This document shows, piece after piece, positions 7,975 through 22,490 of a stretch of DNA of 24,000 nucleotides (position 1 is its first letter; each line of letters begins with the position of its first letter). The translations under genes and the position numbers were made by a program. The stretch comes from Shewanella sp. MR-4 (GTDB lineage Bacteria; Pseudomonadota; Gammaproteobacteria; Enterobacterales; Shewanellaceae). The notes beneath the pieces were generated by a model. The model saw only the letters and a list, made by a program, of their open reading frames with translations, made no database searches and was not told the DNA's origin. The DNA lies in the NCBI RefSeq assembly GCF_000014685.1, contig NC_008321.1:2659481-2683480 (forward strand). The letters run 5' to 3'.

Positions 7975-8119
7975 ATAATTCTCACATACCATAAGATACT
8001 TTGTTATATCAGGCAGACCACACAAAAACCTTAACAAATAAGTTATCTTTGGACAAAGTTATTCCTAAAATTTTGCTCATTCAAATATACGAAATTCTCA
8101 TCAAAAGAATAATATAGCT

Positions 8120-9076: not shown

Positions 9077-9634
9077 ACCACATCAAAGTAAATCTATTTC
9101 TAGCAGAAATAAATTTAGATATTAAATTATCATCTCAAAAACAGTAAAACTAGAAAGACAATCCAAAAACCACTACCAAATAGGCATGTACAAATAATGT
9201 CCATGGACCTAAAAAGGTGATTAACGAAATAAGAAGTCAATAATTGACAAATGATATAAATGGTACAGTTATTATATGATAAGATGTTTACTACTAAACA
9301 TATGATACATTAAAATTACTTTAGATTCGAAAAATAAGAATAAAAATGTGACGCGACCCACATTTAAAACACATAAAAAAATAAAAAAATAAACATAGAT
9401 ACAACTTTAACTTGCTTAAAACGCCAGCAACAACGTTTAAAAAATGTATCGCATTGAATTCCCGTATAGATTTCATTACTATAACGAAAGATGCATAACT
9501 ATCTAGCATTTTGTTTTTTGATAAACAGTTATCCTCATCTAACATTACTCTTGATGAACAATAATCATAGTCTTGAATCAACACCGATTTCCTAGAAATC
9601 TTTTAGTTAGATAAACTAACCTAAAGAGGTATCT

Positions 9635-9853
9635 ATGAACCATAAACGTTATCCCGAAGAATTTAAAATCGAAGCTGTTAAGCAAGTTACCATTGCTGGC
9701 TATTCTGTTGCTGATGTTACTCAGCGTTTAGGAACAACCACCCACAGTCTTTATGCCTGGATTAAGCGCTATGACCCCGATTCAGAAGAACATTTGCAAA
9801 AGTCTAAGAGTCCGTCGAGAACGGCTACAGAAAGAGCTCAAGCGTGGCACTGA
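9635..9853 (+). pseudogene. IS3-family OrfA (HTH) fragment
   Basis: MNHKRYPEEFKIEAVKQVTIAGYSVADVTQRLGTTTHSLYAWIKRY is the canonical IS3/IS911-type OrfA N-terminus. The leucine-zipper part continues in another frame (9753-9971). Confidence 0.8.
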
Positions 9854-10200
9854 AGAACATGACTTGTTAAAAATGCAGCAGAATACTTCGCTAGCCACCC
9901 CGAGTAAGATACGCCTTTATTCAACAGCATCATCACAGCTATTTAGTGCGACAACTTTGTCAGCTGTTTGATGTTCATCCGAGCGGGTATTACTCATGGA
10001 GAATCAGCCATATGGAGAATCAGCCACAAATCAAAGTAACAGAAGGAAAATGAACGACTTGCTGGACAGCTTAAGTTGAGTTAGCTTGAATCTGGTGGAG
10101 ATTATGGATATCGGAAACCTTGTGCTCGCGGCGGTGAACGCCATATAGTGACGCTAAATCGTTTAGAGCGACAATTTAATCCATCGGCCCCCAATATGGC

Positions 10201-10407
10201 TTGGATAGCCGATATTACCTGCATCAAAAAAATGAAGATTGGTTATATGTTGGTGCAGTTATGGACTTATTTTCTCGTCGTATTACTGGTTGGTTGATGG
10301 GCAGCAGAATAACCAAAGAGCTAGCCTTAGAAGTGCTTTTAATGGCTATATGGAGCCGTAAACCTACAGGTAAGGTGTTAGTCCACTCAGATCCGGAAAG
10401 CCAATAG
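10201..10407 (+). pseudogene. IS3-family OrfB (DDE transposase) fragment
   Basis: ..WLYVGAVMDLFSRRITGW...VLVHSDPESQ* corresponds to the first-D and second-D regions of IS3 OrfB (DITYI..WLYLAVVxDLFSRxIVGW...HSDRGSQY). It is truncated and frameshifted on both sides. Confidence 0.75.
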
Positions 10408-10640
10408 TTTCTTTCAGTTGCTAAAGCGTGAGCAGATCAAACCGAAGATCTATTCGACAAGAGAAGTGGCTAAAGTGATATTTTTAAGTTTTACAACCCA
10501 AAACTGCAGCATAGTCCCTATCATGGCTTATCACCGTTAGAGCATGAACGCCAGTATTTTACTGAGGGTCAAAATTGTATAATGAAATAGTGGCGATTCA
10601 AACAAAGCCCCATAATAAGTGTTTAATATTTGATTTTTGG

Positions 10641-11657
10641 CTATTCATAAGTCATAACAACTATTGTTTTTGCCTCAACTGTTCCTGCAGTCAAAACTGG
10701 GTCCACTTGTATATATCTAGCTGAAAATGGAATGGTGTAACTCGCAGCGGCCGAGTCATCAGCACCAACAACATAAAATGGTGTATTTAGTACAATTGCC
10801 CCCCCCCAGTTGTTCGATAGAATCTGTATATTAACCCCATCGGCAGATGTCGTTGAGGTCAATGTAGATAGAGAATCGCTAGAGTTACTCGAGTTATAAG
10901 CATCTGAAAAACTGATATAAGCTTTTGTTCCACTTTGACAAGTCACATTCAGGTTAAAGTTTTTTTCCCCAGCGCCAGTTCCAACACCATTAAAATCACC
11001 AACATTCACAGTTGGCAAATTAACAACCTTATTATCATCTTCCGTTGAAAAAGAACATGTACCTGGGTTGACATTCACTGTAAATAAATATGAAACGTCC
11101 CGACTTACATAGCCATTATTTGAGTATTGATTCTCAGATAAATATGCATACCCTAATCCTCCATAAACTTGATGAATTCCTTTATCGATAACTCCCCTTA
11201 CATGAAATCGAGTTTTGTAGTGTGCCGAGTACCAGCCGTTACCATCCGGATGATTACGTAAATTAACATGTCTACTTGATATAGTAGCCAAATTAATCCA
11301 AGGACCACCACTATCTTTTACCCATAGTTCATAAAAAACATTCGGATTATTAGTAGCAAACATCGCGGTAGAATCAATAGTTTCTATTTGCGAATTAGGG
11401 GAGTAAAACCAATGTGAACTTCCTGCTGAAGAGCAACCATAAAAGGTCCAGTACAACCCATTTCCTCCAGTTGTATACCAATCAGAAGTAAATACACTAG
11501 AGTCACTCATATCCCCTTGAGATACATCACCCATATTAATACTTGCATTTAGATATACATTAGGAGCCCCAACACTTGTACAATATGCCAATATTTTTTC
11601 GCTGAAAAATAAAAGTAAACAAAAAACACAAAAACGAAACTTTATTGCAAAAAACAT
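10641..11657 (-). CDS. Two-domain fimbrial tip adhesin (N-terminal receptor-binding domain plus C-terminal pilin domain), in-operon
   Basis: A 338-aa ORF with a signal peptide (..EKILA/YCTS) and Cys pairs in both halves. The C-terminal half (GTCSF..NLNVTCQSG...GVNIQIL...IPFSARYIQV...GTVEAKTIVVMTYE) has the fimbrial pilin-domain pattern. It is the last gene of the pilin-chaperone-usher-adhesin order, as in F17-type operons. Confidence 0.8.
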   Translation of the reverse strand: MFFAIKFRFCVFCLLLFFSEKILAYCTSVGAPNVYLNASINMGDVSQGDMSDSSVFTSDWYTTGGNGLYWTFYGCSSAGSSHWFYSPNSQIETIDSTAMFATNNPNVFYELWVKDSGGPWINLATISSRHVNLRNHPDGNGWYSAHYKTRFHVRGVIDKGIHQVYGGLGYAYLSENQYSNNGYVSRDVSYLFTVNVNPGTCSFSTEDDNKVVNLPTVNVGDFNGVGTGAGEKNFNLNVTCQSGTKAYISFSDAYNSSNSSDSLSTLTSTTSADGVNIQILSNNWGGAIVLNTPFYVVGADDSAAASYTIPFSARYIQVDPVLTAGTVEAKTIVVMTYE

Positions 11658-11753
11658 ATTGAAGACCCGTTACATTAACATTTCACACCATTTACTTCTG
11701 CTTATAAAATTGCAAAAAACAAAGCATATATACAGAAACGACTTCACAATAAA

Positions 11754-14213
11754 CTAAATACAATCAACATTTAAAATATTCAACGTGCCTTTAGATTTAT
11801 TTTTATTGACATCATACTTAATAGAACAATACTCCCCATTTTTTATATTAACTTTTAATATTCCATTACTACTTTTTGTTCTTGCAAAAACGATACTTCC
11901 TTGCGCTACATTGCCAATATTTAAACCATTCTCATCAATCACATCAGCACCAAATGGCAATGCATCACCTTTAAAACTACTATTAATTAAAATTGAAAAC
12001 CCAATCTCCGTTCCATATTGTAATTTAACAATTGCACTATCGTAAGGAACTGTTTTATTCACAGTATTGCTCAAGGAAGCATTCTTTGAAGTGCCATTTG
12101 GGTCAACATGAATATGGTTAACTTGATAAGGTCTCAAATTTGGTACAACAGCATGTCCTAGGTTGTTTATTTTAATTCCCTTGTAACCAGAAACAGTTGC
12201 TCCCTCCATACCTTTGGCTTCAACTAAAGCAAAAGTATTTCCTGAGTATGGTGAAAGTGTAACGCCACCAGAATGGCCAACTAATGTCCCAGACAAACCA
12301 AATCCATAACTCTTGTAATTATTTCCTTTGCTTGCATTCGCAGACAACTTAGCAATTGGACTAACATACGAAGCATTACCATTAAAGGAGTTCGAACTTT
12401 CATCGTTTGATACTGACACATCATAACTTAGTAATTTTTCTTCCCCGACCACATCAGACAAACCAACTTGCGCTTGTTGATATCCATCACTATCTCTATT
12501 TAAATTAAGCCTAACTCGTGAATCCCTTAATTCTCCTTCAAAACCAAGAGGAATTGAAAGTGAAAGAGCATAATTTGTTTGATATTGTCCATATTGATCT
12601 TCATTTCTACTCACCGATACCCCCCAGCTAAGCCTTTTATATTGATTATTATAACTGACTTGATATTGTCTAGAATAGTTAGTTTCATTCCAGAAGTTTT
12701 CGAAAACTCCAGAAAGATAAAGATTACCATAACCTTCAGGAAAACTTTGGCCGACAGTAACTAAGTACCTGTTTTTTGAATTATATAAATCGTTATATAA
12801 GTATCCTCTCCTTATATTGTCCAAATACAGCATAGCTGTCTGATAATCCATATACTCTTTGGTACTATATTTATATGCTCCTAAAGACAGATTAGTGCCA
12901 CTCGAAAAAATGTTTTTACTATACTTCAATTCATAACTCTGCCCTGAATAATTTTCGTCTAGAAAAGCATAAGATTGCGTCCCTCCAAATGAAAAAGTAC
13001 CTAAACTTGTGCCCAAAGCGAGACCACCTTGCAATGATAAAAAGTCTTCATTTGCTTGCCCCCCCCAATATCCCGTAACAAAGTTATTAATACCGAGCTC
13101 ATAAGTTCCCTCTATAAGCATGGGAGTAAATGAAAGTCTGTCATTCTTATACTGCCCTATAGAAAATGAATATCTTGAGGTATTAGGCCTTAACAATTGT
13201 GCCATTGACTCATATGGAACAGAAAATCTTTGCTCAGTGCCATCAGCTTCTAAAATAATGACATTTAGATTACCACCATATCCTGTTGGATAGAGATCAT
13301 TTATTAAAAACTCGCCAGGACTCACTAATGTCTCATATATAATACGTCCATTTTGCTCCACCTTAACGATTGCATTAGTTTTAGCCACACCAAAAATTTC
13401 TGGCGCATAACCTTTTTGCGAGTCTGCTAACATATTTTGGTCATCATAAATCTGCATACCTAGCAATGGTACTGTGTCAAATAATCTACCATTCGTATTT
13501 TTCTTCCCAAGAACAACATTACCTTTAATGCTGGCAACTGGCCTATAAAGATACGAGTCTAGTGCGTTGTATTGCTCACCTGTATACTCATTCCAGCTAT
13601 ACATACCTTTATGCTTAAAATACCAACCATTAATATTTATACCAGAATCAAAATATGCATTAAAATTTTTGACATCATTTGGACTGACACCGAATAAATC
13701 ATAGGATATATAGGCCGCAGAGATCCCTCTTTCCCACTCGGCAGGATCAACATATCCTCTAACGACCTTATCAAGATATATCTGAGGCACCTGTATATCT
13801 AACTTTGACATTCCCATTGTAAAGTTCACTGCTGAGCCAACAATCACCTCCTCCAATACTATACAGTCTTTAATAAGATTGTCACTTTCAATTAAAATAG
13901 ACTCTTTTATTCCTAATGAGTTTAAGATATTCATATCTATACATGGACGTGACTTACCACCATCCTCTTTAACCTCAAGAGAAACCTTTTTTAAAAAGGA
14001 ACCATTAACGAATAAATCGGCAGGATAGACACCACTAGGAACATAATTACTATATGCAAATTTTTGAATCAAAGAGGCATCATTTACATTGAAAAATGCG
14101 CTATCAAATTCAATCATTTCATTTTCTTTTGCGAATGTAAAACTACCAAACAGAATAAAAAAAATAGGAAAAACACTGCTTAAAACATTCAATTTATGAT
14201 ATATGAAGTTCAT
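11754..14213 (-). CDS. Fimbrial outer-membrane usher
   Basis: An 819-aa ORF with a signal peptide. It has the N-terminal FDSAFF..(L)..VPSGVYPADLFVNG motif typical of PapC/FimD-family ushers, a long beta-rich Gly/Tyr/Asn-rich body and a C-terminal Cys pair. The start is 2 nt after the chaperone stop. Confidence 0.92.
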   Translation of the reverse strand: MNFIYHKLNVLSSVFPIFFILFGSFTFAKENEMIEFDSAFFNVNDASLIQKFAYSNYVPSGVYPADLFVNGSFLKKVSLEVKEDGGKSRPCIDMNILNSLGIKESILIESDNLIKDCIVLEEVIVGSAVNFTMGMSKLDIQVPQIYLDKVVRGYVDPAEWERGISAAYISYDLFGVSPNDVKNFNAYFDSGININGWYFKHKGMYSWNEYTGEQYNALDSYLYRPVASIKGNVVLGKKNTNGRLFDTVPLLGMQIYDDQNMLADSQKGYAPEIFGVAKTNAIVKVEQNGRIIYETLVSPGEFLINDLYPTGYGGNLNVIILEADGTEQRFSVPYESMAQLLRPNTSRYSFSIGQYKNDRLSFTPMLIEGTYELGINNFVTGYWGGQANEDFLSLQGGLALGTSLGTFSFGGTQSYAFLDENYSGQSYELKYSKNIFSSGTNLSLGAYKYSTKEYMDYQTAMLYLDNIRRGYLYNDLYNSKNRYLVTVGQSFPEGYGNLYLSGVFENFWNETNYSRQYQVSYNNQYKRLSWGVSVSRNEDQYGQYQTNYALSLSIPLGFEGELRDSRVRLNLNRDSDGYQQAQVGLSDVVGEEKLLSYDVSVSNDESSNSFNGNASYVSPIAKLSANASKGNNYKSYGFGLSGTLVGHSGGVTLSPYSGNTFALVEAKGMEGATVSGYKGIKINNLGHAVVPNLRPYQVNHIHVDPNGTSKNASLSNTVNKTVPYDSAIVKLQYGTEIGFSILINSSFKGDALPFGADVIDENGLNIGNVAQGSIVFARTKSSNGILKVNIKNGEYCSIKYDVNKNKSKGTLNILNVDCI

Positions 14214-14215
14214 AT

Positions 14216-14917
14216 TTATAAACCTACAATTTTTTGTTTTTCTGTCGCGCCATAGTCATTTATGAATGATATATTATGAACCAAAGAACTATTATATTCA
14301 CTTGAAACAGTCAACACTTCAAATGGTGAAATCATTATGTTTTCTATTAATTTTTTTTCAATATCACCACTTTCAACTGCAGATATACTCAAAATAGTAA
14401 TAAAAAAAGGTGTAGGATTATTAATTTCCATTCCATTTTCTAACTTGCTCAACTTTATTTTTTCCACAGCGCTACTTGTTGACCCATCTAATGAGGTAGG
14501 TCTGAAAAATAGTTTTATCTTGGTTTTAAATGCAAGTTGGAGCTTATTAGCATTAGAATTATTCTTCGGGGGGACCGAAAGTACGTTTAACCAAAATATA
14601 GACTCTTTATTATCTGGAAGAGTTTCCCCTGTGTAAAAAATTCGCAAATGCTGTCCCTCGCCAGCATTAATCTTGTTTATAGGAGGTGATATGACAAATG
14701 GAACTTTAATATTGGAAGGATCTAAATTAAGCTCGCCATTATCAATCCAACTCTGAACTAGAAATGGTTCACTTCCTTTATTTGTCAACTTCAAACTAAC
14801 TTCTTCTTTATCTGATCTATATATTATCCTTGTATTATCCAGTACAACACTAGCTTCCACTGATGAAAAAATAAAAATTGATATAAATATTGCAAATTTA
14901 TATTTCAAACCATTCAT
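14216..14917 (-). CDS. Periplasmic fimbrial chaperone (PapD-like)
   Basis: A 233-aa ORF with a signal peptide and the TRIIYRSDKEEVSLKLTNKGSEPFLVQSWID motif (RxIY...L.N....P.LVQSW), the hallmark of PapD/FimC chaperones. A GGAGGG RBS lies upstream. Confidence 0.92.
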   Translation of the reverse strand: MNGLKYKFAIFISIFIFSSVEASVVLDNTRIIYRSDKEEVSLKLTNKGSEPFLVQSWIDNGELNLDPSNIKVPFVISPPINKINAGEGQHLRIFYTGETLPDNKESIFWLNVLSVPPKNNSNANKLQLAFKTKIKLFFRPTSLDGSTSSAVEKIKLSKLENGMEINNPTPFFITILSISAVESGDIEKKLIENIMISPFEVLTVSSEYNSSLVHNISFINDYGATEKQKIVGL

Positions 14918-14942
14918 TTATATCAGCCCTCCATATAAAGAG

Positions 14943-14972
14943 GCACGTGTATAAATACTCTCATACACGTGC
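14943..14972 (-). promoter_or_regulatory. Intercistronic stem-loop between the major pilin and chaperone genes (partial terminator or mRNA stabiliser)
   Basis: A perfect 10-bp stem GCACGTGTAT/ATACACGTGC with a 10-nt loop lies 12 nt after the pilin stop on the minus strand. It is followed by CTCTTTATAT and then the chaperone RBS. Confidence 0.6.
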
Positions 14973-14984
14973 ACCATTTCATTG

Positions 14985-15533
14985 TTACATATAATGAATA
15001 GAATAAGTGACACTAGAAGTAACTGTGCCAGCAGTTGCCGCTGCACCTTCAGCATAATATTCAACAGCATATGGTAGAATCGCTGTACCATCCCCGGCTA
15101 CAGTTGTTGCTGTATTACTTGTTTTCTGACCTTCATCGCCAGCCTTAATAACACTTGAATTCACCGCATCAAGCAATTGCAAAGAGACATTTCCTGCCGT
15201 ACCATTATTTTTCAAACGGCCAGTAGTAGCCACAACATTTGTGCCGCTCTCAAAGAAAGCAACAACCTGTGACTGATTTGCATCCAGAGTACATTCTGAC
15301 AAATTAATTGTGAATGTTGTTCTACCTGCTACCACAGTGTCTGCGGCTAAATCCGAAGTAGAAACAGTTGGAAGTGTAACAACTGCATCTGCACTGGTGC
15401 CATTAACTTTAACAGTACAAGTCGACGATGTAACTTCACCGTTAAATGTAATGGTTCCTGTCGATGCTTTAGCTGTTGGCACCACGATTACGGGTAAACA
15501 TGCAATTGCTAAAGAAATAATTTTTTTATTCAT
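14985..15533 (-). CDS. Major fimbrial subunit (type-1/F17-A-like pilin)
   Basis: A 182-aa ORF with a signal peptide (..TAKA/STGTITFNGEVTSSTCTV), a Cys pair (C..C about 40 aa apart) and a C-terminal ..TSSVTYSIHYM beta-strand with penultimate Tyr. An AAGGTGAG RBS lies upstream. The mature N-terminus GTITFNG resembles F17-A as I remember it. Confidence 0.9.
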   Translation of the reverse strand: MNKKIISLAIACLPVIVVPTAKASTGTITFNGEVTSSTCTVKVNGTSADAVVTLPTVSTSDLAADTVVAGRTTFTINLSECTLDANQSQVVAFFESGTNVVATTGRLKNNGTAGNVSLQLLDAVNSSVIKAGDEGQKTSNTATTVAGDGTAILPYAVEYYAEGAAATAGTVTSSVTYSIHYM

Positions 15534-15587
15534 TTTCTCACCTTTTTATAAATAAATAATTAATTAGCCACACCAATTAATTACGTT

Positions 15588-15616
15588 GATATAAACGCAA
15601 TTTTATTAGACAACAA
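15588..15616 (-). promoter_or_regulatory. Candidate sigma70 promoter for the fimbrial operon
   Basis: On the minus strand, TTGTTG (15616-15611) is separated by 17 nt from TATATC (15593-15588), about 55 nt upstream of the pilin ATG. This is an eye-picked match in AT-rich DNA, so confidence is low. Confidence 0.3.
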
Positions 15617-15711
15617 TTCAACCTTTTATAATTAGCATCAAAAAATAAAAATCACCATAGACGCTCTTGACATTGAAGATATATGCATGCTAACAAAACT
15701 AACTTTAATGT

Positions 15712-15745
15712 ATAAAAAAGGCCGCCTAACTTTATATAGGCGGCC
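15712..15745 (-). terminator. Strong rho-independent terminator oriented on the minus strand, inside the fimbrial upstream region
   Basis: GGCCGCCTA-(8 nt)-TAGGCGGCC at 15720-15745 forms a 9-bp GC-rich stem. On the minus strand it is followed by TTTTTTAT (plus-strand A6 at 15714-15719). On the plus strand only TTT follows. Confidence 0.7.
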
Positions 15746-15779
15746 TTTAGCTAGTAACACTTTAACTTCCTTGATAAAT

Positions 15780-15900
15780 CCCTTTCTCACCGAATCCCTT
15801 CTCACAGAATCCCTTCTCACAGAATCTCCCTTCTCACAGAATCCCTTCTCACAGAATCCCTTCTCACAGAATCCCTTCTCACAGAATCCCTTCCTCTCTC
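15780..15900. repeat. Tandem array of a 15-bp unit CCCTTCTCACAGAAT (about 7.5 copies)
   Basis: The units are 15780-15795 (16 bp variant ccctttctcaccgaat), 15796-15810, 15811-15825, 15826-15842 (17 bp, extra ct), 15843-15857, 15858-15872 and 15873-15887, then a partial unit cccttcct... Five units are identical. Confidence 0.95.
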
Positions 15901-16063
15901 TACAGACTACAAAACCTCTAATAATCCGTTTAATTTCGCATTGTTTAGAACGTTACAAAACAAAATGGCACAAAAAGACATCCTGTACACCCTGTACCTG
16001 CAAAGACATATTTTGCCATCTGCAAAAAGGCCAGACTTAGCACTCACAAAAAAAGCGCGCGTC

Positions 16064-16081
16064 AGATGCTAACTCTCGAAC
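16064..16081 (+). promoter_or_regulatory. Conserved upstream motif AGATGCTAACTCTCGAAC shared with the other EAL-like gene
   Basis: It lies 57 nt upstream of the 16138 ATG and is preceded by A7-GCGCGCG. A near-identical AGATGCTAACTACTCGCAAC, preceded by A8...GCGCGC, occurs 46 nt upstream of the 21412 ATG. Confidence 0.35.
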
Positions 16082-16137
16082 ATCGAGTGCCGCTAGAATG
16101 AATTCGTCTAGGGACTATAAAATAAAGGAAAAGCATT

Positions 16138-16659
16138 ATGATTAATTGTACTTGTGATCTTTTAAACATACTAATGCAAAGTTACAATATCAACTTTACT
16201 AATAAAATTAGTTATAGATTATGTTTGGTTAACAAAAAACATAGTGAATCACCTATAAAAGGAAATATTTATACTATTTTGATCAATGATTCAAATTTTG
16301 ACTCATCGGCAAAGAACCATATTGTCAATCAAAGATTATTATTAACAAACACTCCTAGAGAAATTTTTAATATAATCCGAAAAAACAAAATAAAACTTGA
16401 GAAGTTAGAATGCAGATTTCTATTCCTACCATTTGAGCGTAGTTATTTGTGCGATATGCATCTGCTAATAGAACTACTTGACTTACAGGTCTGTCTTTCG
16501 AAGTCAAACATAGGGCTAGTAATTGAAATAAATCACCGTTCCCATTATGGCTGTACAGATTGCCCAAATGCCAATTTAGGATTGAAATATATTGATAAAA
16601 AAATAGACATTATATACACAAAAAAATCAAATGAAGATTTTTTCACTAAATCACCTTGA
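16138..16659 (+). CDS. Truncated, degenerate EAL-like protein (paralogue of 21412-22134), possibly a pseudogene
   Basis: A 173-aa ORF with an AAGGAA RBS. It aligns by eye to the 240-aa EAL protein: YTILIND/YQNIIDR, FLFLPFERSYL/FLNVDKHLL, LVIEINHRSHYG/IVFEITERQYG, KKIDII/IKIDMH. The E.L..R, N, second E of ExxE and DD positions are substituted. The EGVE and QG segments are absent and about 20 aa are deleted internally. Confidence 0.5.
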   Translation: MINCTCDLLNILMQSYNINFTNKISYRLCLVNKKHSESPIKGNIYTILINDSNFDSSAKNHIVNQRLLLTNTPREIFNIIRKNKIKLEKLECRFLFLPFERSYLCDMHLLIELLDLQVCLSKSNIGLVIEINHRSHYGCTDCPNANLGLKYIDKKIDIIYTKKSNEDFFTKSP

Positions 16660-16764
16660 ATATGACTAATCAGCCAATGATCAAGACTTATATTTTTATG
16701 ATTGTATATAGGTAAATGTATAAATCATATAGTTCACTAATTAAAACCCATAGAGACTTAGAGG

Positions 16765-17748
16765 ATGTTCATGAGAAAAACTGTAAATTTTAAATGGATT
16801 ATTCCTATAATTTTGTGGGGTGCACAAAATCAATCTGTTTATGCATTTTATTGCTCTTTCAGTTCGACCACAACAACAATTAAATTGAGTGATGTAGCAA
16901 ACATCGGTGATGAAATCGTTCTTTATAACTTAGCAGGGCAAACTTGCAGTGGTTGGGGAAGCCCTAACTATCTAGATGCACTTAGAGTTTATAGTTTCAC
17001 TGAATACAATATTTTGCAAGGTTCTGGACTTTCAGTGTTCTATGTCGATAATGGCTATTACTACAAATACCCAGAAGTTATTAATCGCTGTGTTTGGCCT
17101 TGGAGTGGAAGTACATGTCCTTACTCTACCTTTACGGATGGTACCTACCCTGTCAGAGGACGGCTAGTGCTCAGACGGACGGGCACCACCGCATCCAACG
17201 TAACTATTCCTGCAAACTCAAAATTAGCCGAAATTGGGTTTCAGCAAAGAGGATATTCCAGCTCAGGACCAGCATGGAGTAGTAACGTTTATAAAATATC
17301 CGTCTCAAATAGTGACGCATTATCTTTTCCAACGTGTGATGTAGATATTGGCAGTCAAAATCAAACTATAGCTTTTTCTCCAGTATCTTCAAATCAATTC
17401 TCGGGGATTGGGACGACCGCTGAAAGTGAATTGTTTTCAATAAAATTAAATTGCAAAGCGGGTGTTTCTGTATATGCAACCGTTACCGATTCGAATCAAC
17501 TAGGTAGCGCAGGCCCTAACTTATCACTTGATCCAAGCTCAAGTGCCGCAGGGGTTGGCATTCAAGTTTTGTATAATGGCGCACCATTGGGATTCGGAGT
17601 TGCAAACCAATTTTATGTAGCAGGAAACGCCTCCACTCCGGAAGTATCACACATAGTTCCCTTTGAAGCACGTTATGTTCAAACTCAATTGAAAATTATT
17701 CCTGGCTCGGTGTCTGCAAAAGCGATCATATCTTTTGAATATTTGTAG
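16765..17748 (+). CDS. Orphan two-domain fimbrial adhesin paralogue
   Basis: A 327-aa ORF with a signal peptide (..SVYA/FYCSF). The C-terminal half (PTCDV..KLNCKAGVSVYATVTDSNQLGSAGPNLSLD..GVGIQVL..VPFEARYVQT..PGSVSAKAIISFEYL) is a pilin domain closely related to 20243-21238. The N-terminal half is unrelated by eye. A second ATG at 16771 has better spacing to the GAGG and may be the true start. Confidence 0.8.
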   Translation: MFMRKTVNFKWIIPIILWGAQNQSVYAFYCSFSSTTTTIKLSDVANIGDEIVLYNLAGQTCSGWGSPNYLDALRVYSFTEYNILQGSGLSVFYVDNGYYYKYPEVINRCVWPWSGSTCPYSTFTDGTYPVRGRLVLRRTGTTASNVTIPANSKLAEIGFQQRGYSSSGPAWSSNVYKISVSNSDALSFPTCDVDIGSQNQTIAFSPVSSNQFSGIGTTAESELFSIKLNCKAGVSVYATVTDSNQLGSAGPNLSLDPSSSAAGVGIQVLYNGAPLGFGVANQFYVAGNASTPEVSHIVPFEARYVQTQLKIIPGSVSAKAIISFEYL

Positions 17749-18704
17749 TAAGACAATTTAAAGCTGTATAGATCGCTAATGATTCCCCTAGGCACCTTTT
17801 AGTTAGATGAACTAACACAAGAGATGCCTAGAGACCACAACCTTATCCCAGAGAATTTATAATCGAAGCTGTTAATAAATTACCTTTGCAGTTCATTCTG
17901 TTGTTGCTCAACGCTTAGGTCCATTCAGAGATTAAACGCTATGGCTCAGATTCAGATCAACACTTGCGCAATGTTTGATTAATCTGCCGAAATTAATCAA
18001 CTTCAGAAAAAATAAAGCGTGTAACTGAAAAATGTGACTAGTTAAAAAGCTGCCGCGTACTTTGGAGCCTGTCCTCGTAAGATACGCCTTTTTTCAAGAA
18101 CATCACTACTTGCCAGTACAACAACTTTATGAACGAGTTTAATGTTAATCTGAGCAGGTTTTACGCACCGAGAAACCGCTCTAAATCAAAGTAGCAGAAG
18201 GATAATAAAAGAAGACTTACAGGGCAACTCCAAAGGAGGTATCTCGGAGTTTGTGGTGTTATAGATATCCTAAAATCTGCCGAGATATGAGGACATTGGC
18301 TGGTAATGTGAGATTAATCGTGTACACCGACTCATGCGACTAGTAGGACTGAAAGTATAAGTTGAAATCGGAAACCACGTGCTCATGCAGGTGAACGGCA
18401 TGTAATCGCCAAATCGTTTAGCGGCAATGTATCCCAGAGGCTCCCGATATGGTTAGAGGTAATCGATATTTATAACATCAAAATACATGAAGGTTGGTTT
18501 TATCTTGGAAGATTGATGGGTAAAAGAATAGCTAAATCCCTGGTATTACAGCGTTTTTAATGGCTATATGGTGCGTTAAATCTACAGGTAAGATTACTTA
18601 ATTGTAAACAATGAAACCAATATTCCCAGCCATGACTGGAGTGAACTTCTTACTGCACATGGATTGGAAGGCGCCATGAGACGACGTGGTAATTAGTATG
18701 ATAA

Positions 18705-18713
18705 TGCCGTAGT
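18705..18713. repeat. 9-bp target-site duplication TGCCGTAGT (left copy) of the IS10-like element
   Basis: An identical 9-mer directly abuts both IS ends (18705-18713 and 20032-20040). Confidence 0.9.
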
Positions 18714-20031
18714 CTAGCAAATCCCCAGATAAATTCGATGGAATTCAAATAAGTAGACACGCATGATGCTGTTTGATCTAATTAATTTCGCCAAAAACCT
18801 ACTAGATCCAACATCATGCGTGATATCGACATATTACACGATTTACTCAAAAAACAATGCCCTCAAATACATCAAAAACGCCTTAATTCTCTGATGGTTG
18901 CTACCGAGTCTTTACTCGATGGTAATCAACTCTCGTTAACCCAGTTAGGACGGAACATAACGGGGAATGTTGCACCAAAACACAATATCAAGCGCATTGA
19001 CCGACTGCTCGGAAATTTACATGTTATCAAAGATAAGTTCGCTATTTATCAATGGCATGCACAATATCTCTGCGGCGCAAATCCGATGCCCATTATTCTT
19101 GTGGATTGGTCTGATGTACGCGAGCAACTGCGAATGATTACCTTACGCGCATCAATCAGTGTTAAAGGTCGCTCCATTACTTTGTACGAACGCACTTTTC
19201 TGTTTGAAGATTACAATGCTCCACGCAGTCATAACGCTTTCCTAGTTGAGCTTGCAAACGTATTGCCGCCAGGATGCTGCCCGCTCATCGTCACCGATGC
19301 AGGTTATCGCAATACTTGGTTTAGGGAAGTTGAGCGCCATGGCTGGTTTTGGCTAGGTAGAGTTCGCGGTGACGTCAGTTTTATGCTCAACGGCCAAACA
19401 TCATGGCAGTCAAATAAATCCCTCTATCCTAAAGCGAATTCAACCGCGAAATACATAGGTAGTGTCAAGTTAGCACGCAAGTCTCCGCTACAATGTTACC
19501 TGCACTTGTTTAAAGCTAAACCTAAGCTGCGTAAGGATAAACGCTCTTCTAAGGCTGGACGAAATCACACCGCACAAAAGAGTTACAGCTTAGGAAGTAA
19601 AGAGCCTTGGCTACTCGCCACCAATCTACCTCCAGATTACTTTGGCCCTTCGAAGGTCGTCGATTTGTATGCTAAACGAATGCAAATTGAAGAAACCTTC
19701 CGCGATTTAAAAAGTCCGCAATATGGCATGGGCCTCAGACAAAGCCGCAGCCGTTGTCCAAAGCGATATGATGTATTGCTGCTCATCGCTATGCTCGCTG
19801 AAATCGTGTTGTGGTGTATTGGGTTAGCGGCACAACACCTTGGATGGCAAAGATATTTTCAAGCCAATACCGTGAGAAAGCGGGCAGTGCTATCAATTGT
19901 TAGACTTGGAAAGGAAGTACGTAAAAGAGACAAATATCCGGTAAAGGAGACAATTTTTCGCTGGGCATTAGTCGAATATATAAACTTAGTTCATGACGCT
20001 GGAAGACCTCAATTATGAGGGGATCCCCCAG
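18714..20031 (+). mobile_element. Intact IS10-like (IS4 family) insertion sequence, 1318 bp
   Basis: The ends are CTAGCAAATCCCCAGATAAATT (left) and the reverse complement CTGGGGGATCCCCTCATAATT (right). They resemble the IS10 ends CTGA.GAATCCCCT.AT.ATT as I remember them. There is a single full-length transposase ORF and a 9-bp TSD, as IS10 makes. Confidence 0.92.
18816..20018 (+). CDS. IS4-family (IS10-type) DDE transposase
   Basis: A 400-aa ORF colinear with the IS10 transposase as remembered: DILHD...HNIKRIDRLLGN..., ILVDWSD (D1), LIVTDAGY (D2), KEPWLLATNLP, YAKRMQIEETFRDLKSPQYGMGL (E, YREK region), FQANTVR..VLS.VRLG.EV. Confidence 0.95.
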   Translation: MRDIDILHDLLKKQCPQIHQKRLNSLMVATESLLDGNQLSLTQLGRNITGNVAPKHNIKRIDRLLGNLHVIKDKFAIYQWHAQYLCGANPMPIILVDWSDVREQLRMITLRASISVKGRSITLYERTFLFEDYNAPRSHNAFLVELANVLPPGCCPLIVTDAGYRNTWFREVERHGWFWLGRVRGDVSFMLNGQTSWQSNKSLYPKANSTAKYIGSVKLARKSPLQCYLHLFKAKPKLRKDKRSSKAGRNHTAQKSYSLGSKEPWLLATNLPPDYFGPSKVVDLYAKRMQIEETFRDLKSPQYGMGLRQSRSRCPKRYDVLLLIAMLAEIVLWCIGLAAQHLGWQRYFQANTVRKRAVLSIVRLGKEVRKRDKYPVKETIFRWALVEYINLVHDAGRPQL

Positions 20032-20040
20032 TGCCGTAGT
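20032..20040. repeat. 9-bp target-site duplication TGCCGTAGT (right copy)
   Basis: See 18705-18713. Confidence 0.9.
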
Positions 20041-20242
20041 ATAGAGCTTTTCCCTGTTATTAAAGCATGAAAAAATAATATAGAAGCTCTATTCTACAAG
20101 AGAAACGCCACAAAGAGTGATTTTTAAGTGCGTTGTTGCTAAACAAATTAGGCCACTAGTGAAATAATAGCTATTCAGGGCTGTTTTACATTCTCATTTA
20201 GGAAAACGATATTTTGTTTAAATTCTACAAAGGGAGTAAAAG

Positions 20243-21238
20243 TTATAGGTAACTGAATGAAATCACTGTTTTGGCTATGACTGTCCCAGGATTTATAATT
20301 GTTGAAGTTTGTACATAACGTGCTTCAAACGGCACAGAATAAGTACTCGCCGAAGGTATTCCTGTTCCAGAGATATAAACAGGATTGCCAAATGATAAAG
20401 GATTGCCACTCTGTAATAATTGAATACCAACCCCCGATGCAGTCGAGGAACCATCAAGAGATAAGTTAGGCCCAGTATTACTTAATTGGTTAGTATCACT
20501 AACAGTAGCATAGACAGAAACTCCTGCATCACAATCTAACACAATCCCAAATGGCACGCTTTCAGCTGTTGTTCCAACACCTAAGAAGTCACTTGTTGAA
20601 ACCTCAGGGAGTAAAACAGTTTGCTCTGAATTATTTACAGTGCATGTTGGGGCTGTTACTATTGAAGATCCAAAACCCATTCTGTTATAAATAGCAGAAT
20701 CTGATGATACAACCGAATAATATCTGCTTGTTAATGCTTTAATTGTTGGAATAGGTAACTGTATCACTCCTGACTTTAAAGGCCCGGTAACAATAAACCG
20801 CACATATATAGAGGCAAGATACGCAGCACCGCCAGATGTATTATGTTGATACCAGTACTTAGGTGTGTTACCAATCATGACTGTCTTACCGAAGGTAGTG
20901 TATACTTGAACTCCAACTCCATCAACGTTGGTATCGTACACTTCATATCCATTATATGTGACGCTCGACTTTACCATGGGCTGCTCAAAAGCTAACCACA
21001 TATAAGGTATATAACCGCAGTTCAGAGCAGAAGCACTCCCACTAAAAGAGCCAAATAGTGCTAGCTGTTGGCCTATTGACACATTGGCTGGCACACTAAC
21101 ACTCCCTAGCGAGCGATTGCTGTAGATAGCGTTAGCGCTGCAAGCTTCAGCTTTAGCAATAAAGATAAAACAAAAAAAAACCAGACCAACTAGAGCAAAA
21201 ATTAGCCACAGCATTTTCTTCTCAGATAGAAACATCAT
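20243..21238 (-). CDS. Orphan two-domain fimbrial adhesin paralogue
   Basis: A 331-aa ORF with a signal peptide (..FIAKA/EACSAN). The C-terminal pilin domain (PTCTV..VLDCDAGVSVYATVSDTNQLSNTGPNLSLD..GVGIQLL..VPFEARYVQT..PGTVIAKTVISFSYL) is clearly paralogous to 16765-17748. The N-terminal roughly 190 aa are divergent. Confidence 0.8.
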   Translation of the reverse strand: MMFLSEKKMLWLIFALVGLVFFCFIFIAKAEACSANAIYSNRSLGSVSVPANVSIGQQLALFGSFSGSASALNCGYIPYMWLAFEQPMVKSSVTYNGYEVYDTNVDGVGVQVYTTFGKTVMIGNTPKYWYQHNTSGGAAYLASIYVRFIVTGPLKSGVIQLPIPTIKALTSRYYSVVSSDSAIYNRMGFGSSIVTAPTCTVNNSEQTVLLPEVSTSDFLGVGTTAESVPFGIVLDCDAGVSVYATVSDTNQLSNTGPNLSLDGSSTASGVGIQLLQSGNPLSFGNPVYISGTGIPSASTYSVPFEARYVQTSTIINPGTVIAKTVISFSYL

Positions 21239-21345
21239 TACTCACCCATAAAATATTTCAACATAGCACAGCTCTTAAATAAGAATTTTGAAATTTACCA
21301 CCATGCCAAAAAAAAGAGTTGGCACGCGCGCAATTATTTCTCAAG

Positions 21346-21365
21346 AGATGCTAACTACTCGCAAC
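21346..21365 (+). promoter_or_regulatory. Conserved upstream motif AGATGCTAACTACTCGCAAC (second copy)
   Basis: See 16064-16081. It lies in the 173-bp divergent region between the adhesin (20243-21238) and the EAL gene (21412-). Confidence 0.35.
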
Positions 21366-21411
21366 TAAAACTAGGTGATTATTTTTATTAAAATAATTAG
21401 AGGTTCTAATA

Positions 21412-22134
21412 ATGATATACACCTCCACAGTAAGTCATTGCAAATATAAACAATGTATTTTCCATAGTGTAGAATGTGATAAGTCAAATTGTCGACATTA
21501 TTATATCTACCAAAATATCATTGATAGAAATGGAGGCTTACACGCCATTGAAATCCTTTCAAGACCTATCTCAAACATTAAAATCTCAATAGAAAAATAC
21601 TTTGACATATTAAGTCAAGATGAAGGAACGAAGATATTAAAACATCAATTACTAAACTTTTCTAAAAACTTCAAAAAACTGGATATTGGAACAAAAAAAA
21701 TTTTTTTGAATGTTGATAAACACCTACTTAATAACCAAAAAAATGTCGACTTGCTTATTAACAGCAGCACTGACTTTAACCAAAATTTCTGGGAGATTGT
21801 TTTTGAAATCACAGAAAGACAATATGGAAAAATCCCTGGGATAAGAAATGCTTTTTGCCAAATGATATTAAATGATGTGTTATTTGCCGCAGATGATTAC
21901 TCATCAATTACAAACACGCATAATTTTTTAATTGACTACACCTATATAAAAATAGATATGCATGAAATAATTGAGCGTACGAATCGAGACTTTAATGATT
22001 TTATTGATGAGCTTTATTTAATGAAAGAATGCGGCAAAAAACTTATAGTAGAAAAAATACAGACACAAAATGATTACCTTTTAACAATCGCAATGCCATT
22101 TGACTATTTTCAAGGTTTTTATTTTGATGATTAA
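21412..22134 (+). CDS. Stand-alone EAL-domain protein (putative c-di-GMP phosphodiesterase or c-di-GMP-related regulator)
   Basis: A 240-aa ORF with an AGAGG RBS. EAL-domain motifs appear in order: YQNIIDRNGGLHAIEILSRP (YQPI...G.E.L.R), FLNVD (N), FEITER (ExxE), AADDYSS (DDFG), IKID (KxD), LIVEKIQTQNDY (AEGVE with the first E kept and the second changed to Q), FDYFQGFYF (QG). The size matches single-domain EAL proteins such as PdeH and YdiV. Confidence 0.7.
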   Translation: MIYTSTVSHCKYKQCIFHSVECDKSNCRHYYIYQNIIDRNGGLHAIEILSRPISNIKISIEKYFDILSQDEGTKILKHQLLNFSKNFKKLDIGTKKIFLNVDKHLLNNQKNVDLLINSSTDFNQNFWEIVFEITERQYGKIPGIRNAFCQMILNDVLFAADDYSSITNTHNFLIDYTYIKIDMHEIIERTNRDFNDFIDELYLMKECGKKLIVEKIQTQNDYLLTIAMPFDYFQGFYFDD

Positions 22135-22143
22135 ATAGAAGAT

Positions 22144-22185
22144 TGAATCATGAGGTGCTCAGGATTCATCTGCATTTTATTTTCG
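22144..22185 (+). terminator. Rho-independent terminator after the EAL gene
   Basis: TGAATCATGAG-gtg-CTCAGGATTCA forms an 11-bp stem with one mismatch. It starts 10 nt after the stop and is followed by tctgcATTTTATTTT. Confidence 0.6.
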
Positions 22186-22337
22186 CTATGCCTGATGGTA
22201 CATTTTTTGTATACAAGTATAAGCTGAATTAACCAGGTCACCAACAAAGAGTCAAGGCAACATAATAACTATGCACTATTGTTTATGCGAAGCTTTAATA
22301 GACCACCCTACTAAAAACTAAAAATCATCGTATAAAA

Positions 22338-22379
22338 ACATTAAAGCCTCACAGTAAAAGTTACTATGAGGCCTTTATA
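22338..22379 (-). terminator. Terminator hairpin downstream of tRNA-Pro (bidirectional in form)
   Basis: GCCTCACAGTAA-aag-TTACTATGAGGC (22346-22372) has one mismatch and lies about 40 nt past the tRNA 3' end. The minus strand continues TTTAATGTTTTTAT and the plus strand continues CTTTATATT. Confidence 0.65.
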
Positions 22380-22413
22380 TTGATTGACTTCGGGTGAAAC
22401 CAATCTCCGAATT

Positions 22414-22490
22414 TGGTCGGTATGAGAGGATTCGAACCTCCGACCCCTGACACCCCATGACAGTGCGCTACCGGGCTGCGCTACATACCG
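22414..22490 (-). tRNA. tRNA-Pro, anticodon GGG
   Basis: The reverse complement is CGGTATGTAGCGCAGCCCGGTAGCGCACTGTCATGGGGTGTCAGGGGTCGGAGGTTCGAATCCTCTCATACCGACCA, 77 nt. It has a 7-bp acceptor stem, a GCGC/GCGC D stem, the anticodon loop AUGGGGU (GGG), the T arm GGAGG-TTCGAAT-CCTCT and an encoded CCA. It is almost identical in pattern to E. coli proL as remembered. Confidence 0.95.

What the first reader, a model, noticed from the sequence alone, without database searches (positions are those of the whole stretch)
15780..15900. Near-perfect 15-bp tandem repeat array in the control region of the fimbrial operon
Seen directly: about 7.5 head-to-tail copies of CCCTTCTCACAGAAT. Five are identical, one is a 16-bp variant and one is a 17-bp variant with an extra CT. 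The array lies 247-367 bp upstream of the major pilin ATG (15533, minus strand) and 238 bp upstream of the EAL-like ORF (16138, plus strand). Nothing like it occurs elsewhere in the window. The high unit identity argues for recent expansion or contraction. Inference: the array could be a copy-number-variable spacer. Each 15-bp step rotates upstream sites by roughly 1.4 helical turns relative to the promoter. That would be a phase or rheostat switch comparable to repeat-controlled adhesin promoters such as the TAAA tract upstream of Neisseria nadA. Alternatively it could be an iteron-like array of binding sites for a regulator.
Basis: partly seen in the sequence, partly recalled or inferred. 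Interest (0 to 1): 0.65.

Follow-up and report, generated by a model that had tools for sequence, protein, structure and literature searches.

The report
GGA-rich tandem repeat beside pilin gene
A real array of eight 15-base repeats, so far found only in this organism, lies upstream of a fimbrial pilin gene; read on the pilin's strand it looks like a ~200-nt small RNA with ten binding motifs for the global regulator CsrA and a strong terminator, but this is unproven and it may be only an unstable minisatellite.

Summary
Window 15777-15893 holds 7.6 head-to-tail copies of a 15-bp unit, with five identical units, one 16-bp variant and one 17-bp variant. A degenerate eighth unit extends the array to 15905. 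Nothing similar occurs elsewhere in the window or in the public collections scanned.

On the minus strand (the pilin strand) every unit reads CUGUGAGAAGGGAUU and carries the CsrA-type motif ARGGA. Two further AGGA motifs flank the array. About 28 nt downstream lies one of the two strongest intrinsic terminators in the window, with no annotated gene upstream of it on that strand.

Motif density equals that of E. coli CsrB and CsrC. Three of the five published criteria for CsrA-sequestering sRNAs are met. Two are not: predicted GGA exposure and an upstream UvrY/GacA box. No convincing promoter was found.

The closest homologous fimbrial operon lacks the array. The neighbouring "EAL-like" ORF is an orphan with no EAL signal. 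Copy-number variation could not be tested because short-read assemblies break inside the array.

Best reading (confidence about 0.35): a young repeat-built GGA-rich RNA acting as a CsrA sponge. Rivals are a neutral minisatellite, a DNA-level spacer switch, and a regulator-binding array.

The parts
15777..15905 (-). Tandem array of 8 units read on the minus strand. From 5' to 3': degenerate CUGUAGAGAGAGGAAGGGAUU (15905-15885); three units of CUGUGAGAAGGGAUU; a 17-nt variant CUGUGAGAAGGGAGAUU (15839-15823); two more perfect units; a 16-nt variant CGGUGAGAAAGGGAUU (15792-15777). Every unit contains AGGGA (ARGGA). Every full unit contains UGUGAG or GGUGAG.
15766..15772 (-). Extra AAGGAAG (an AGGA motif) in the non-repeat linker between the array and the terminator. 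Together with the AGGA in the degenerate first unit, this gives 10 GGA in about 199 nt.
15714..15748 (-). Intrinsic terminator: AAAGGCCGCCUA-UAUAAAGU-UAGGCGGCCUUU followed by a U-run, six U in all. The stem has 12 pairs. On the plus strand only three U follow the stem.
   Evidence: -22.1 kcal/mol, z = -4.8, 0 of 200 shuffles as stable; I7, 100% complementary arms; second strongest terminator-like site of the window; the strongest lies just downstream of the tRNA-Pro gene
15714..15912 (-). Proposed transcript: a GGA-repeat RNA of about 200 nt. The 3' end is set by the terminator. The 5' end is not determined.
   Evidence: Inference. No promoter above the 99.5th percentile lies directly upstream.
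15687..15716 (-). Best sigma-70-like site for the pilin operon: -35 TTTATA (15716-15711), 18-nt spacer, -10 TAGCAT (15692-15687). It lies downstream of, and abuts, the terminator U-tract.
   Evidence: score 6.3, 99.91st percentile of all sites in the window; consensus match only
15531..15542 (-). Pilin translation-initiation region GGUGAGAAA-AUG. Its 9 nt GGUGAGAAA are identical to part of the terminator-proximal repeat unit.
   Evidence: the only one of 15 ORF start regions with a match of 9 nt or more; the others have 6 nt or fewer; about 0.4% chance per start region; post hoc
10641..15533 (-). Chaperone-usher fimbrial operon: FimA-like pilin 14985-15533, PapD chaperone 14216-14917, usher 11754-14213, tip adhesin 10641-11657.
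16138..16659 (+). No family, no homologues, no confident fold; it may not be a gene.
15814..15842 (+). Promoter-like TTCTCA-17 nt-CAGAAT inside the array. The 17-nt spacing exists only at the 17-bp variant unit. It points towards 16138.
   Evidence: 99.89th percentile; consensus match only

Best explanation
The array is a young minisatellite specific to this lineage. Together with the adjacent terminator it forms a small transcription unit on the minus strand, roughly 15912 to 15714 (about 200 nt).

The RNA would consist of eight 15-nt units, each carrying one ARGGA motif (AAGGGAU) that can sit in a weak AGA/UCU hairpin. Two more AGGA motifs flank the units, and a strong rho-independent terminator ends the RNA.

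Such an RNA would bind several dimers of the global translational regulator CsrA. It would then act as a sponge, like CsrB, RsmY or the Salmonella fim leader. That would link expression of this horizontally acquired fimbrial island to the Csr network. Gain or loss of units would change the number of binding sites.

Shown: the array, the motif in every unit, the motif density, and the terminator with its strand and strength.

Inferred: that the region is transcribed, where the transcript starts, that CsrA binds it, and any effect on fimbriae.
For: 1. Strand-specific intrinsic terminator 28 nt downstream of the array. It has 12 pairs and -22.1 kcal/mol (z = -4.8), with a U6 tail on the minus strand only.
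2. It is one of the two strongest terminators in the 24 kb. The other ends the tRNA-Pro gene, so such sites mark real 3' ends here. No ORF of 60 aa or more lies upstream of it on that strand before 16367.
3. AGGA/ARGGA count is 10 in 199 nt (5.0 per 100 nt). E. coli CsrB scores 4.9 and CsrC 4.1 by the same count. The maximum elsewhere in the window is 5 per 180 nt. ANGGA windows average 0.64 per 200 nt, against 10 here.
4. AGGGA is also used 4 times in CsrB.
5. Two of the ten motifs lie outside the perfect units.
6. Three of the five defining criteria of Kulkarni et al. 2006 (PMC1488887) are met: intergenic location, motif density, terminator.
7. The host is a Vibrio/Shewanella-type gammaproteobacterium. 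Shewanella has CsrA, BarA/UvrY and CsrB1/B2 (PMC3171408).
8. Precedent for a fimbrial RNA titrating CsrA: the Salmonella fim 5'-UTR (PMC6844306).
9. The closest homologous operon lacks the element, so it is not part of the operon's ancestral promoter architecture.
Against: - Because all units are copies of one 15-mer, 'a motif in every unit' is essentially one observation. A random 15-mer unit carries AGGA/ARGGA on a given strand roughly 9% of the time (my estimate).
- GGA triplets are predicted to be mostly paired: unpaired probability 0.29 against 0.47 for all positions. In CsrB the values are 0.80 against 0.44, and in CsrC 0.61 against 0.42. With pair span limited to 20 nt there is still no enrichment, 0.57 against 0.59.
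- No UvrY/GacA box (TGTRAGN6CTYACA, up to 3 mismatches) lies within 240 bp upstream.
- No sigma-70 match above the 99.5th percentile lies directly upstream of the array. The nearest minus-strand candidate, TATAGT at 16114-16119, has a poor -35.
- No Rfam family matches, even at E<=10.
- No homologue exists anywhere, so there is no covariation or conservation evidence.
- No expression data are available.
Confidence: 0.35

Rival explanations
1. Neutral minisatellite (VNTR). A 15-bp unit expanded recently by replication slippage in an AT-rich, IS-ridden, horizontally acquired intergenic region. It has no function. The terminator only insulates the pilin promoter, or is left over from a lost upstream gene. 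The motif matches are coincidental.
For: - High unit identity, with degenerate edge units.
- The element is unique to this lineage and absent from the closest homologous operon.
- The island is 30-40% G+C against 45-47% for the nar operon, with IS genes and gene fragments around it.
- Unrelated minisatellites with similar purine-rich units are scattered through metagenomes.
- There is no promoter, no UvrY box and no predicted GGA exposure.
Against: - A top-ranked orphan terminator lies directly 3' of the array, on the strand where the array is GGA-rich.
- Extra AGGA motifs lie outside the perfect units.
- There is a 9-nt identity with the adjacent pilin ribosome-binding region.
- Each of these is individually weak.
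Confidence: 0.25
2. One reading: a DNA-level contingency locus. Slippage changes the number of 15-bp units. That alters the distance and helical phase between upstream sites and the pilin promoter or the divergent promoter, giving phase-variable or graded expression, as with nadA (TAAA)n or hmw (ATCTTTC)n.
For: - Near-perfect repeats are mutable.
- The array would lie at about -97 to -213 from the best pilin promoter candidate.
- The 17-bp variant unit creates a TTCTCA-17-CAGAAT promoter-like site on the plus strand.
- Repeat-number control of adhesin genes is well documented (PMC12721329; PMC8262952).
Against: - No copy-number data could be obtained.
- The unit is 15 bp, longer than classical simple sequence repeats.
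- A strong terminator hairpin lies between the array and the promoter candidate.
- No operator or regulator site is known upstream.
- The divergent ORF is an orphan of doubtful reality.
- No complementary partner segment exists that would allow an hmw-type 5'-UTR hairpin.
Confidence: 0.15
3. Array of protein-binding sites on DNA. Each unit holds the palindrome TTCT-CAC-AGAA and, on the minus strand, TGTGAG. TGTGAG is one half-site of the UvrY/GacA box TGTRAG-N6-CTYACA. A NarL/FixJ-type response regulator (UvrY or a fimbrial regulator) would bind cooperatively and either activate a neighbouring promoter or be titrated.
For: - The unit sequence itself.
- The Shewanella UvrY box consensus (PMC3171408).
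- A chance half-site in a random 15-mer unit is about 1.5% (my estimate, post hoc).
Against: - No full 18-bp palindromic box is present.
- The sites are direct repeats at 15-bp spacing, about 1.43 helical turns, so not on one face of the helix.
- No regulator gene is adjacent: the 318-aa ORF at 8120-9076 and the 173-aa ORF have no DNA-binding domain hit.
- The motif resemblance was found after looking at many motifs.
Confidence: 0.12
4. Plus-strand RNA. The array is transcribed towards 16138 as (CCCUUCUCACAGAAU)n, a pyrimidine-rich tract resembling an anti-Shine-Dalgarno sequence. Its units are complementary to 7-9 nt of the pilin ribosome-binding site (UUUCUCACC pairs with GGUGAGAAA), so it would repress pilin translation in trans. 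This would resemble the CU-rich seed motifs of Listeria LhrC or staphylococcal RsaE (from memory).
For: - A 9-nt match between the terminator-proximal unit and the pilin start region, unique among 15 ORF starts.
- Plus-strand promoter-like sites with -10 hexamers ending at 15700 and 15842.
Against: - No terminator follows the array on the plus strand.
- The strong hairpin lies upstream of the array on that strand and has only a UUU tail.
- The plus-strand region is not structured, z = +0.6.
- The promoter matches are consensus-only.
- The 9-nt match is post hoc.
Confidence: 0.08

Closest known systems
CsrB/CsrC/RsmY/RsmZ-type CsrA-sequestering sRNAs (including Shewanella CsrB1/B2 and Pseudoalteromonas Pf1-3)
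   Same: - Intergenic location.
- Similar size range: about 200 nt here, against 246-369 nt for the controls and about 420 nt for Shewanella CsrB1/B2.
- AGGA/ARGGA density of 5.0 per 100 nt, equal to CsrB (4.9) and CsrC (4.1).
- Ends in a rho-independent terminator.
- AGGGA is also a CsrB motif variant.
(PMC1488887; PMC11882849; PMC3171408)
   Different: - Built from near-identical head-to-tail 15-nt units instead of diverged stem-loops.
- GGA triplets are not predicted to be exposed.
- No UvrY/GacA upstream box and no clear promoter.
- No Rfam match.
- No orthologues.
- Located in a fimbrial island directly upstream of a pilin gene.
Salmonella fimAICDHF 5'-UTR as a CsrA-titrating RNA (Sterzenbach et al. 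2013, as described in PMC6844306)
   Same: An RNA physically linked to a chaperone-usher fimbrial operon that would sequester CsrA, and so tie one adhesin system to the Csr network.
   Different: Here a strong terminator separates the GGA-rich segment from the pilin gene, so it would be a separate short transcript rather than the mRNA leader. The motif number is much higher and is repeat-derived.
Haemophilus influenzae hmw1A/hmw2A (ATCTTTC)n repeat (PMC12721329, PMC8262952)
   Same: A tandem repeat upstream of an adhesin gene that acts after being transcribed. Repeat number tunes expression.
   Different: - The hmw unit is 7 bp and lies in the adhesin mRNA's own 5'-UTR.
- It pairs with a G-rich arm to form an RNase III substrate.
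- Here no complementary arm exists, and a terminator ends the RNA before the pilin gene.
Neisseria nadA (TAAA)n promoter tract
   Same: A repeat tract roughly 100-200 bp upstream of an adhesin promoter.
   Different: - 15-bp unit against 4 bp.
- No known flanking operator or IHF sites.
- Variation has not been demonstrated.
- A terminator lies between the tract and the promoter candidate.

Membership tests
CsrA-regulating sRNAs (criteria of Kulkarni et al. 2006, PMC1488887) | Located in an intergenic region | tested here: met
   It lies between the pilin ATG (15533) and the ORF at 16138. Only short or implausible ORFs overlap it.
CsrA-regulating sRNAs (criteria of Kulkarni et al. 2006, PMC1488887) | High concentration of AGGA/ARGGA motifs | tested here: met
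   10 motifs in 199 nt (5.0 per 100 nt), against CsrB 4.9 and CsrC 4.1. The maximum elsewhere in the window is 5 per 180 nt. Caveat: the units are copies of one sequence.
CsrA-regulating sRNAs (criteria of Kulkarni et al. 2006, PMC1488887) | Rho-independent terminator at the 3' end | tested here: met
   12-bp stem, -22.1 kcal/mol, U6 tail on the minus strand.
CsrA-regulating sRNAs (criteria of Kulkarni et al. 2006, PMC1488887) | Predicted structure shows GGA repeatedly in loops or free regions | tested here: not met
   GGA unpaired probability is 0.29 against 0.47 overall, and 0 of 10 GGA lie in MFE hairpin loops. The controls give CsrB 0.80 against 0.44 and CsrC 0.61 against 0.42. The local unit hairpin is worth only -1.7 kcal/mol. 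This is an in-silico result only; the inter-unit helices are rich in G.U pairs and weak.
CsrA-regulating sRNAs (criteria of Kulkarni et al. 2006, PMC1488887) | Conserved upstream activating site (csrB/UvrY-GacA box TGTAAGN6CTTACA, or a csrC or rsmY site) | tested here: not met
   No match with up to 3 mismatches in 15900-16140. The csrC-type site could not be tested because no matrix was available.
CsrA-regulating sRNAs | Sequence and structure homology to a curated family (Rfam CsrB, CsrC, RsmX/Y/Z) | tested here: not met
   No hit at gathering threshold or at E<=10.
CsrA-regulating sRNAs | Transcribed, and binds CsrA | not testable with these tools
   No expression or binding data were available.
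Promoter or 5'-UTR simple-sequence-repeat contingency loci (nadA, hmw, hif) | Near-perfect tandem tract of short units (1-9 bp) | tested here: not met
   The tract is near-perfect, but the unit is 15 bp, which makes it a minisatellite.
Promoter or 5'-UTR simple-sequence-repeat contingency loci (nadA, hmw, hif) | Copy number varies between strains or within populations | not testable with these tools
   The only other assemblies, SRR9438266 and SRR9438267, break inside the array.
Promoter or 5'-UTR simple-sequence-repeat contingency loci (nadA, hmw, hif) | Tract lies between promoter elements or operators, or within the regulated gene's 5'-UTR | tested here: inconclusive
   The array is about 97-213 bp upstream of the best pilin promoter candidate and is separated from it by a terminator. 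No transcription start sites are known.
Iteron-like or regulator-binding arrays | Units spaced in helical phase, with a cognate binding protein encoded nearby | tested here: not met
   The 15-bp period is about 1.43 helical turns. Neighbouring ORFs have no DNA-binding domain hit.
UvrY/GacA binding box | 18-bp palindrome TGTRAG-N6-CTYACA | tested here: not met
   Only the half-site TGTGAG is present, as direct repeats. No full box was found.

The most novel reading that the evidence does not exclude
A regulatory RNA of variable copy number: a CsrA (or other RNA-binding-protein) sponge built from a mutable minisatellite. Slippage would add or remove 15-nt binding units and so change the sponge's number of binding sites, heritably and reversibly. 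This would be a contingency locus acting through the stoichiometry of a regulatory RNA, not through a promoter or a reading frame. It would be carried on a fimbrial island and could set the hierarchy between adhesins.
Probability: 0.1. Interest if true: 0.75.

Novelty: new variant of a known kind. Interest (0 to 1): 0.42.

Why it matters
If the RNA reading is right, it would show that a protein-sponge sRNA can arise de novo by amplification of a single binding motif, and the present array would be an early stage of that process.

It would also suggest that horizontally acquired adhesin islands can bring their own input into the host's Csr network. This extends the Salmonella fim-leader precedent.

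If copy number also varies, it would add a new layer, RNA valency, to bacterial phase variation.

If the array is only a minisatellite, its practical value is as a strain-typing marker and as a known breakpoint for short-read assemblies.

Tried and rejected
1. Homologue searches found no relatives:
- The exact 24-mer (1.6 units) is absent from 185,579 species-representative genomes and from JGI metagenomes.
- Those scans returned only unrelated purine microsatellites or minisatellites, with no shared flanks or terminator.
- There is no match in E. coli genomes or plasmids.

2. Copy-number comparison failed. Contigs of the only two other samples end inside the array.

3. Rfam found nothing, at gathering threshold or at E<=10. 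The weak hits are all to the terminator hairpin.

4. Coding readings were rejected:
- The plus-strand 117-aa ORF (15687-16040) runs through the terminator hairpin, and the 16- and 17-bp units shift it through three frames.
- The minus-strand 60-aa and 21-aa ORFs are similar artefacts.

5. A transcription-attenuation leader was rejected. No array or linker segment is complementary to a terminator arm, so I see no antiterminator (sequence inspection).

6. An hmw-type long 5'-UTR hairpin was rejected. No complementary pyrimidine-rich partner exists in the operon transcript.

7. A mobile element or MITE was rejected. No flanking inverted repeats beyond AT-rich chance pairs were found.

8. Structured RNA in the non-repeat upstream region: not significant, z = -1.7 on the minus strand and +0.6 on the plus strand.

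9. The sigma-54 idea is too weak to pursue: TGGCAC at 15966-15971 (plus strand) has a poor -12 element, and the hexamer is expected about 12 times per window by chance.

10. The organism is not confirmed:
- NarH and NarI cluster at 90% identity or more with Vibrio and Shewanella proteins.
- From memory, the chromosome length of 4,706,287 bp suggests Shewanella sp. MR-4, but a literature check did not confirm this.
- An IS query against plasmids gave nothing.

11. Structure prediction of the 173-aa ORF was uninformative, pLDDT 32, so no fold search was run.

Full report
**Observation**

The array is real and is placed as described.
- TRF finds one array at 15777-15893: period 15, 7.6 copies, 94% matches, score 200. 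Nothing comparable exists elsewhere in the window.
- Parsing gives five identical 15-mers, a 16-bp variant (15777-15792), a 17-bp variant (15823-15839), and a degenerate 21-bp unit that extends the array to 15905.
- The 9-mer GAAGGGATT occurs six times, all in the array, against 0.19 expected.
- The stated distances to the pilin ATG (15533) and to the ATG at 16138 are correct.
- Pfam confirms a chaperone-usher operon on the minus strand: FimA-like pilin, PapD chaperone, usher and tip adhesin.

**Surroundings**

- The window runs from narGHJI (602-7309) through an AT-rich island to a tRNA-Pro gene at 22417-22490.
- The island holds IS genes, gene fragments, the fimbrial operon, two further adhesin-like genes and an EAL protein.
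- The island is 30-40% G+C, against 45-47% for the nar operon.
- NarH and NarI fall in 90%-identity clusters with Vibrio and Shewanella proteins, and the source chromosome is 4.706 Mb. The host is therefore a marine-type gammaproteobacterium.
- I suspect, from memory and unconfirmed, a Shewanella of the MR-4/MR-7 group. Shewanella has CsrA, BarA/UvrY and UvrY-dependent CsrB1/CsrB2 (PMC3171408).

**The "EAL-like" neighbour**

The 173-aa ORF at 16138-16659 has no support as an EAL protein:
- no Pfam or NCBIfam match, even at E<=10;
- no similarity to the genuine EAL protein of the window;
- no PDB sequence match;
- no homologue outside its own species;
- a structure model with mean pLDDT 32.

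It is an orphan and may not be a gene.

Read on the pilin's strand, the array is (CUGUGAGAAGGGAUU)n.
- Every unit holds AGGGA, which fits the CsrA-binding motif ARGGA.
- The degenerate 5' unit adds an AGGA, and the linker after the array adds another (AAGGAAG, 15766-15772).
- This gives 10 GGA in about 199 nt.
- Twenty-eight nucleotides downstream of the last unit lies a 12-bp G+C-rich stem-loop followed by U6 (15714-15748): -22.1 kcal/mol, z = -4.8, and no shuffle as stable.
- On the plus strand the same hairpin is followed by only UUU.
- In a scan of both strands of the whole window, this is one of the two strongest terminator-like sites. The other lies directly downstream of the tRNA-Pro gene, so such sites mark real transcript ends here.
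- No ORF of 60 aa or more lies upstream of it on the minus strand before 16367. It is an orphan terminator, a classical pointer to an unannotated small RNA gene.

**Testing the CsrA-sponge reading**

Kulkarni et al. 2006 (PMC1488887) list five defining features of CsrA-regulating sRNAs.

Three are met:
- Intergenic location.
- Motif density: 5.0 AGGA/ARGGA per 100 nt, against 4.9 for E. coli CsrB and 4.1 for CsrC counted the same way. Nothing else in the window exceeds 5 per 180 nt. AGGGA itself occurs four times in CsrB.
- A rho-independent terminator.

Two are not met:
- GGA exposure. In the folding ensemble the GGA triplets are mostly paired, 0.29 unpaired against 0.47 for all positions. 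They are strongly exposed in CsrB (0.80 against 0.44) and CsrC (0.61 against 0.42). The cause is that GGGAUUCU is quasi-self-complementary through G.U pairs, so units pair with each other. The local AGAA-GGGA-UUCU hairpin is worth only -1.7 kcal/mol.
- Upstream site. No UvrY/GacA box occurs in the 240 bp upstream, even with three mismatches.

Further negatives:
- A sigma-70 weight-matrix scan finds no site above the 99.5th percentile directly upstream of the array. The nearest minus-strand candidate, TATAGT at 16114-16119, has a poor -35.
- Rfam gives nothing.
- Because the units are copies of one 15-mer, "a motif in every unit" is close to a single observation. By my estimate a random unit would carry AGGA/ARGGA on a given strand about 9% of the time.

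**Comparative evidence**

- The pilin's closest relative is only 67% identical. Its operon lies next to ilvC with a 590-bp upstream region that has no array and no GGA-rich element. The array is therefore not an ancestral part of this operon's control region.
- The exact pilin and the 173-aa ORF occur only in two Logan short-read assemblies, SRR9438266 and SRR9438267.
- In both, the contigs stop inside the array on both sides, with flanks 100% identical to the window.
- The array 24-mer is absent from the species-representative genomes and from JGI metagenomes.
- Relaxed scans returned only unrelated repeats.
- The element is, as far as these collections show, specific to this lineage and evolutionarily young.

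**The DNA-level readings**

- The best promoter candidate for the pilin gene is TTTATA-18-TAGCAT at 15687-15716, at the 99.91st percentile. It abuts the terminator's T-tract. This puts the array at about -97 to -213, with the terminator hairpin in between.
- That geometry does not exclude a nadA-like spacer effect, but nothing supports it. The unit is 15 bp, no operator is known upstream, and the divergent gene is doubtful.
- As a binding-site array, each unit has the palindrome TTCT-CAC-AGAA and the UvrY/GacA half-site TGTGAG. However, the sites are direct repeats out of helical phase, no full box exists, and no regulator gene is adjacent.
- An hmw-like mechanism, in which the repeat is transcribed in the adhesin 5'-UTR and forms a long hairpin (PMC12721329), lacks a complementary partner here.

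**Two further observations**

- The pilin translation-initiation region, GGUGAGAAA-AUG at 15531-15542, shares 9 nt with the terminator-proximal unit. It is the only one of 15 ORF start regions with a match of 9 nt or more, which is about 0.4% chance per region but post hoc. The minus-strand RNA would therefore mimic the pilin RBS, and a plus-strand RNA would be complementary to it.
- The 17-bp variant unit creates a TTCTCA-17-CAGAAT promoter-like site on the plus strand.

Both are leads, not evidence.

**Verdict**

| Reading | Confidence |
|---|---|
| Short minus-strand transcription unit: a repeat-built, GGA-rich RNA ending at a strong terminator and acting as a CsrA sponge | about 0.35 |
| Neutral minisatellite | 0.25 |
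| DNA-level spacer or rheostat | 0.15 |
| Regulator-binding array | 0.12 |
| Plus-strand anti-RBS RNA | 0.08 |

- The sponge reading has functional parallels in CsrB/RsmY and in the Salmonella fim leader (PMC6844306).
- It is not a demonstrated member of the CsrB family, because two defining features failed in silico.
- The most novel reading not excluded is a sponge RNA whose number of binding sites changes by repeat slippage (probability about 0.1).

Noticed in passing
window 15777-15905 (minus strand): Each repeat unit contains TGTGAG, one half-site of the UvrY/GacA box TGTRAG-N6-CTYACA, directly next to the ARGGA motif. A single 15-nt unit therefore carries sequence signatures of both the transcriptional arm and the RNA arm of the Csr system. 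No full palindromic box is present.
   Followed up: partly
window 15531-15542 and 15777-15792: The pilin ribosome-binding region GGUGAGAAA(AUG) is identical over 9 nt to the terminator-proximal repeat unit. None of 14 other ORF start regions shares more than 6 nt with the array.
   Followed up: partly
window 15814-15842 (plus strand): The 2-bp insertion of the 17-bp variant unit creates a promoter-like TTCTCA-17 nt-CAGAAT (99.89th percentile of the window) pointing towards 16138. Normal units give only 15-nt spacing.
   Followed up: no
window 15979-15997 (minus strand): A short 9-bp repeat (ACACCCTGT x2.2 on the plus strand) reads ACAGGGUGUACAGGAUGU on the minus strand. It includes CAGGAUG, the most common CsrB motif, about 75 nt upstream of the array. 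It would be part of the RNA only if transcription starts further upstream, for example from the TATAGT at 16114-16119.
   Followed up: no
A second sample (SRR9438267, L008) has it called as a shorter 161-aa product. It may be non-coding.
   Followed up: yes
window 7310-22490: A low-G+C island (30-40%, against 45-47% for narGHJI) lies between narI and a tRNA-Pro gene. It holds IS transposase genes (9635-9971 and 18816-20018), a GGDEF fragment (7473-7832, partial domain only), the intact fimbrial operon, two stand-alone adhesin-like genes (16765-17748 on the plus strand; 20243-21238 on the minus strand with an MrkD-like receptor domain) and an EAL protein (21412-22134). It looks like a mosaic of fimbrial clusters disrupted by IS elements.
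   Followed up: partly
window 9996-10026: A perfect 16-bp direct repeat (ATGGAGAATCAGCCAT x1.9) lies next to the IS-related ORFs. It is possibly an IS end or a target duplication.
   Followed up: no
L001, L002 and L008 (Logan assemblies SRR9438266 and SRR9438267): Short-read assemblies of the same organism break exactly at both edges of the array. The locus is therefore systematically split in such data, and its copy number is invisible without long reads.
   Followed up: yes
L192, L248, L222 and L167 (metagenome contigs): Unrelated metagenome contigs carry 14-16-nt minisatellites with very similar cores, for example (GCGTGAGAAGGGAC)n, (ACGTGAGAAGGGAGA)n and (TTAGTGAGAAGGGA)n. They have different flanks and no shared terminator. 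This is probably selection by my search pattern, but a recurrent GUGAGAAGGGA-type repeat was not ruled out.
   Followed up: partly
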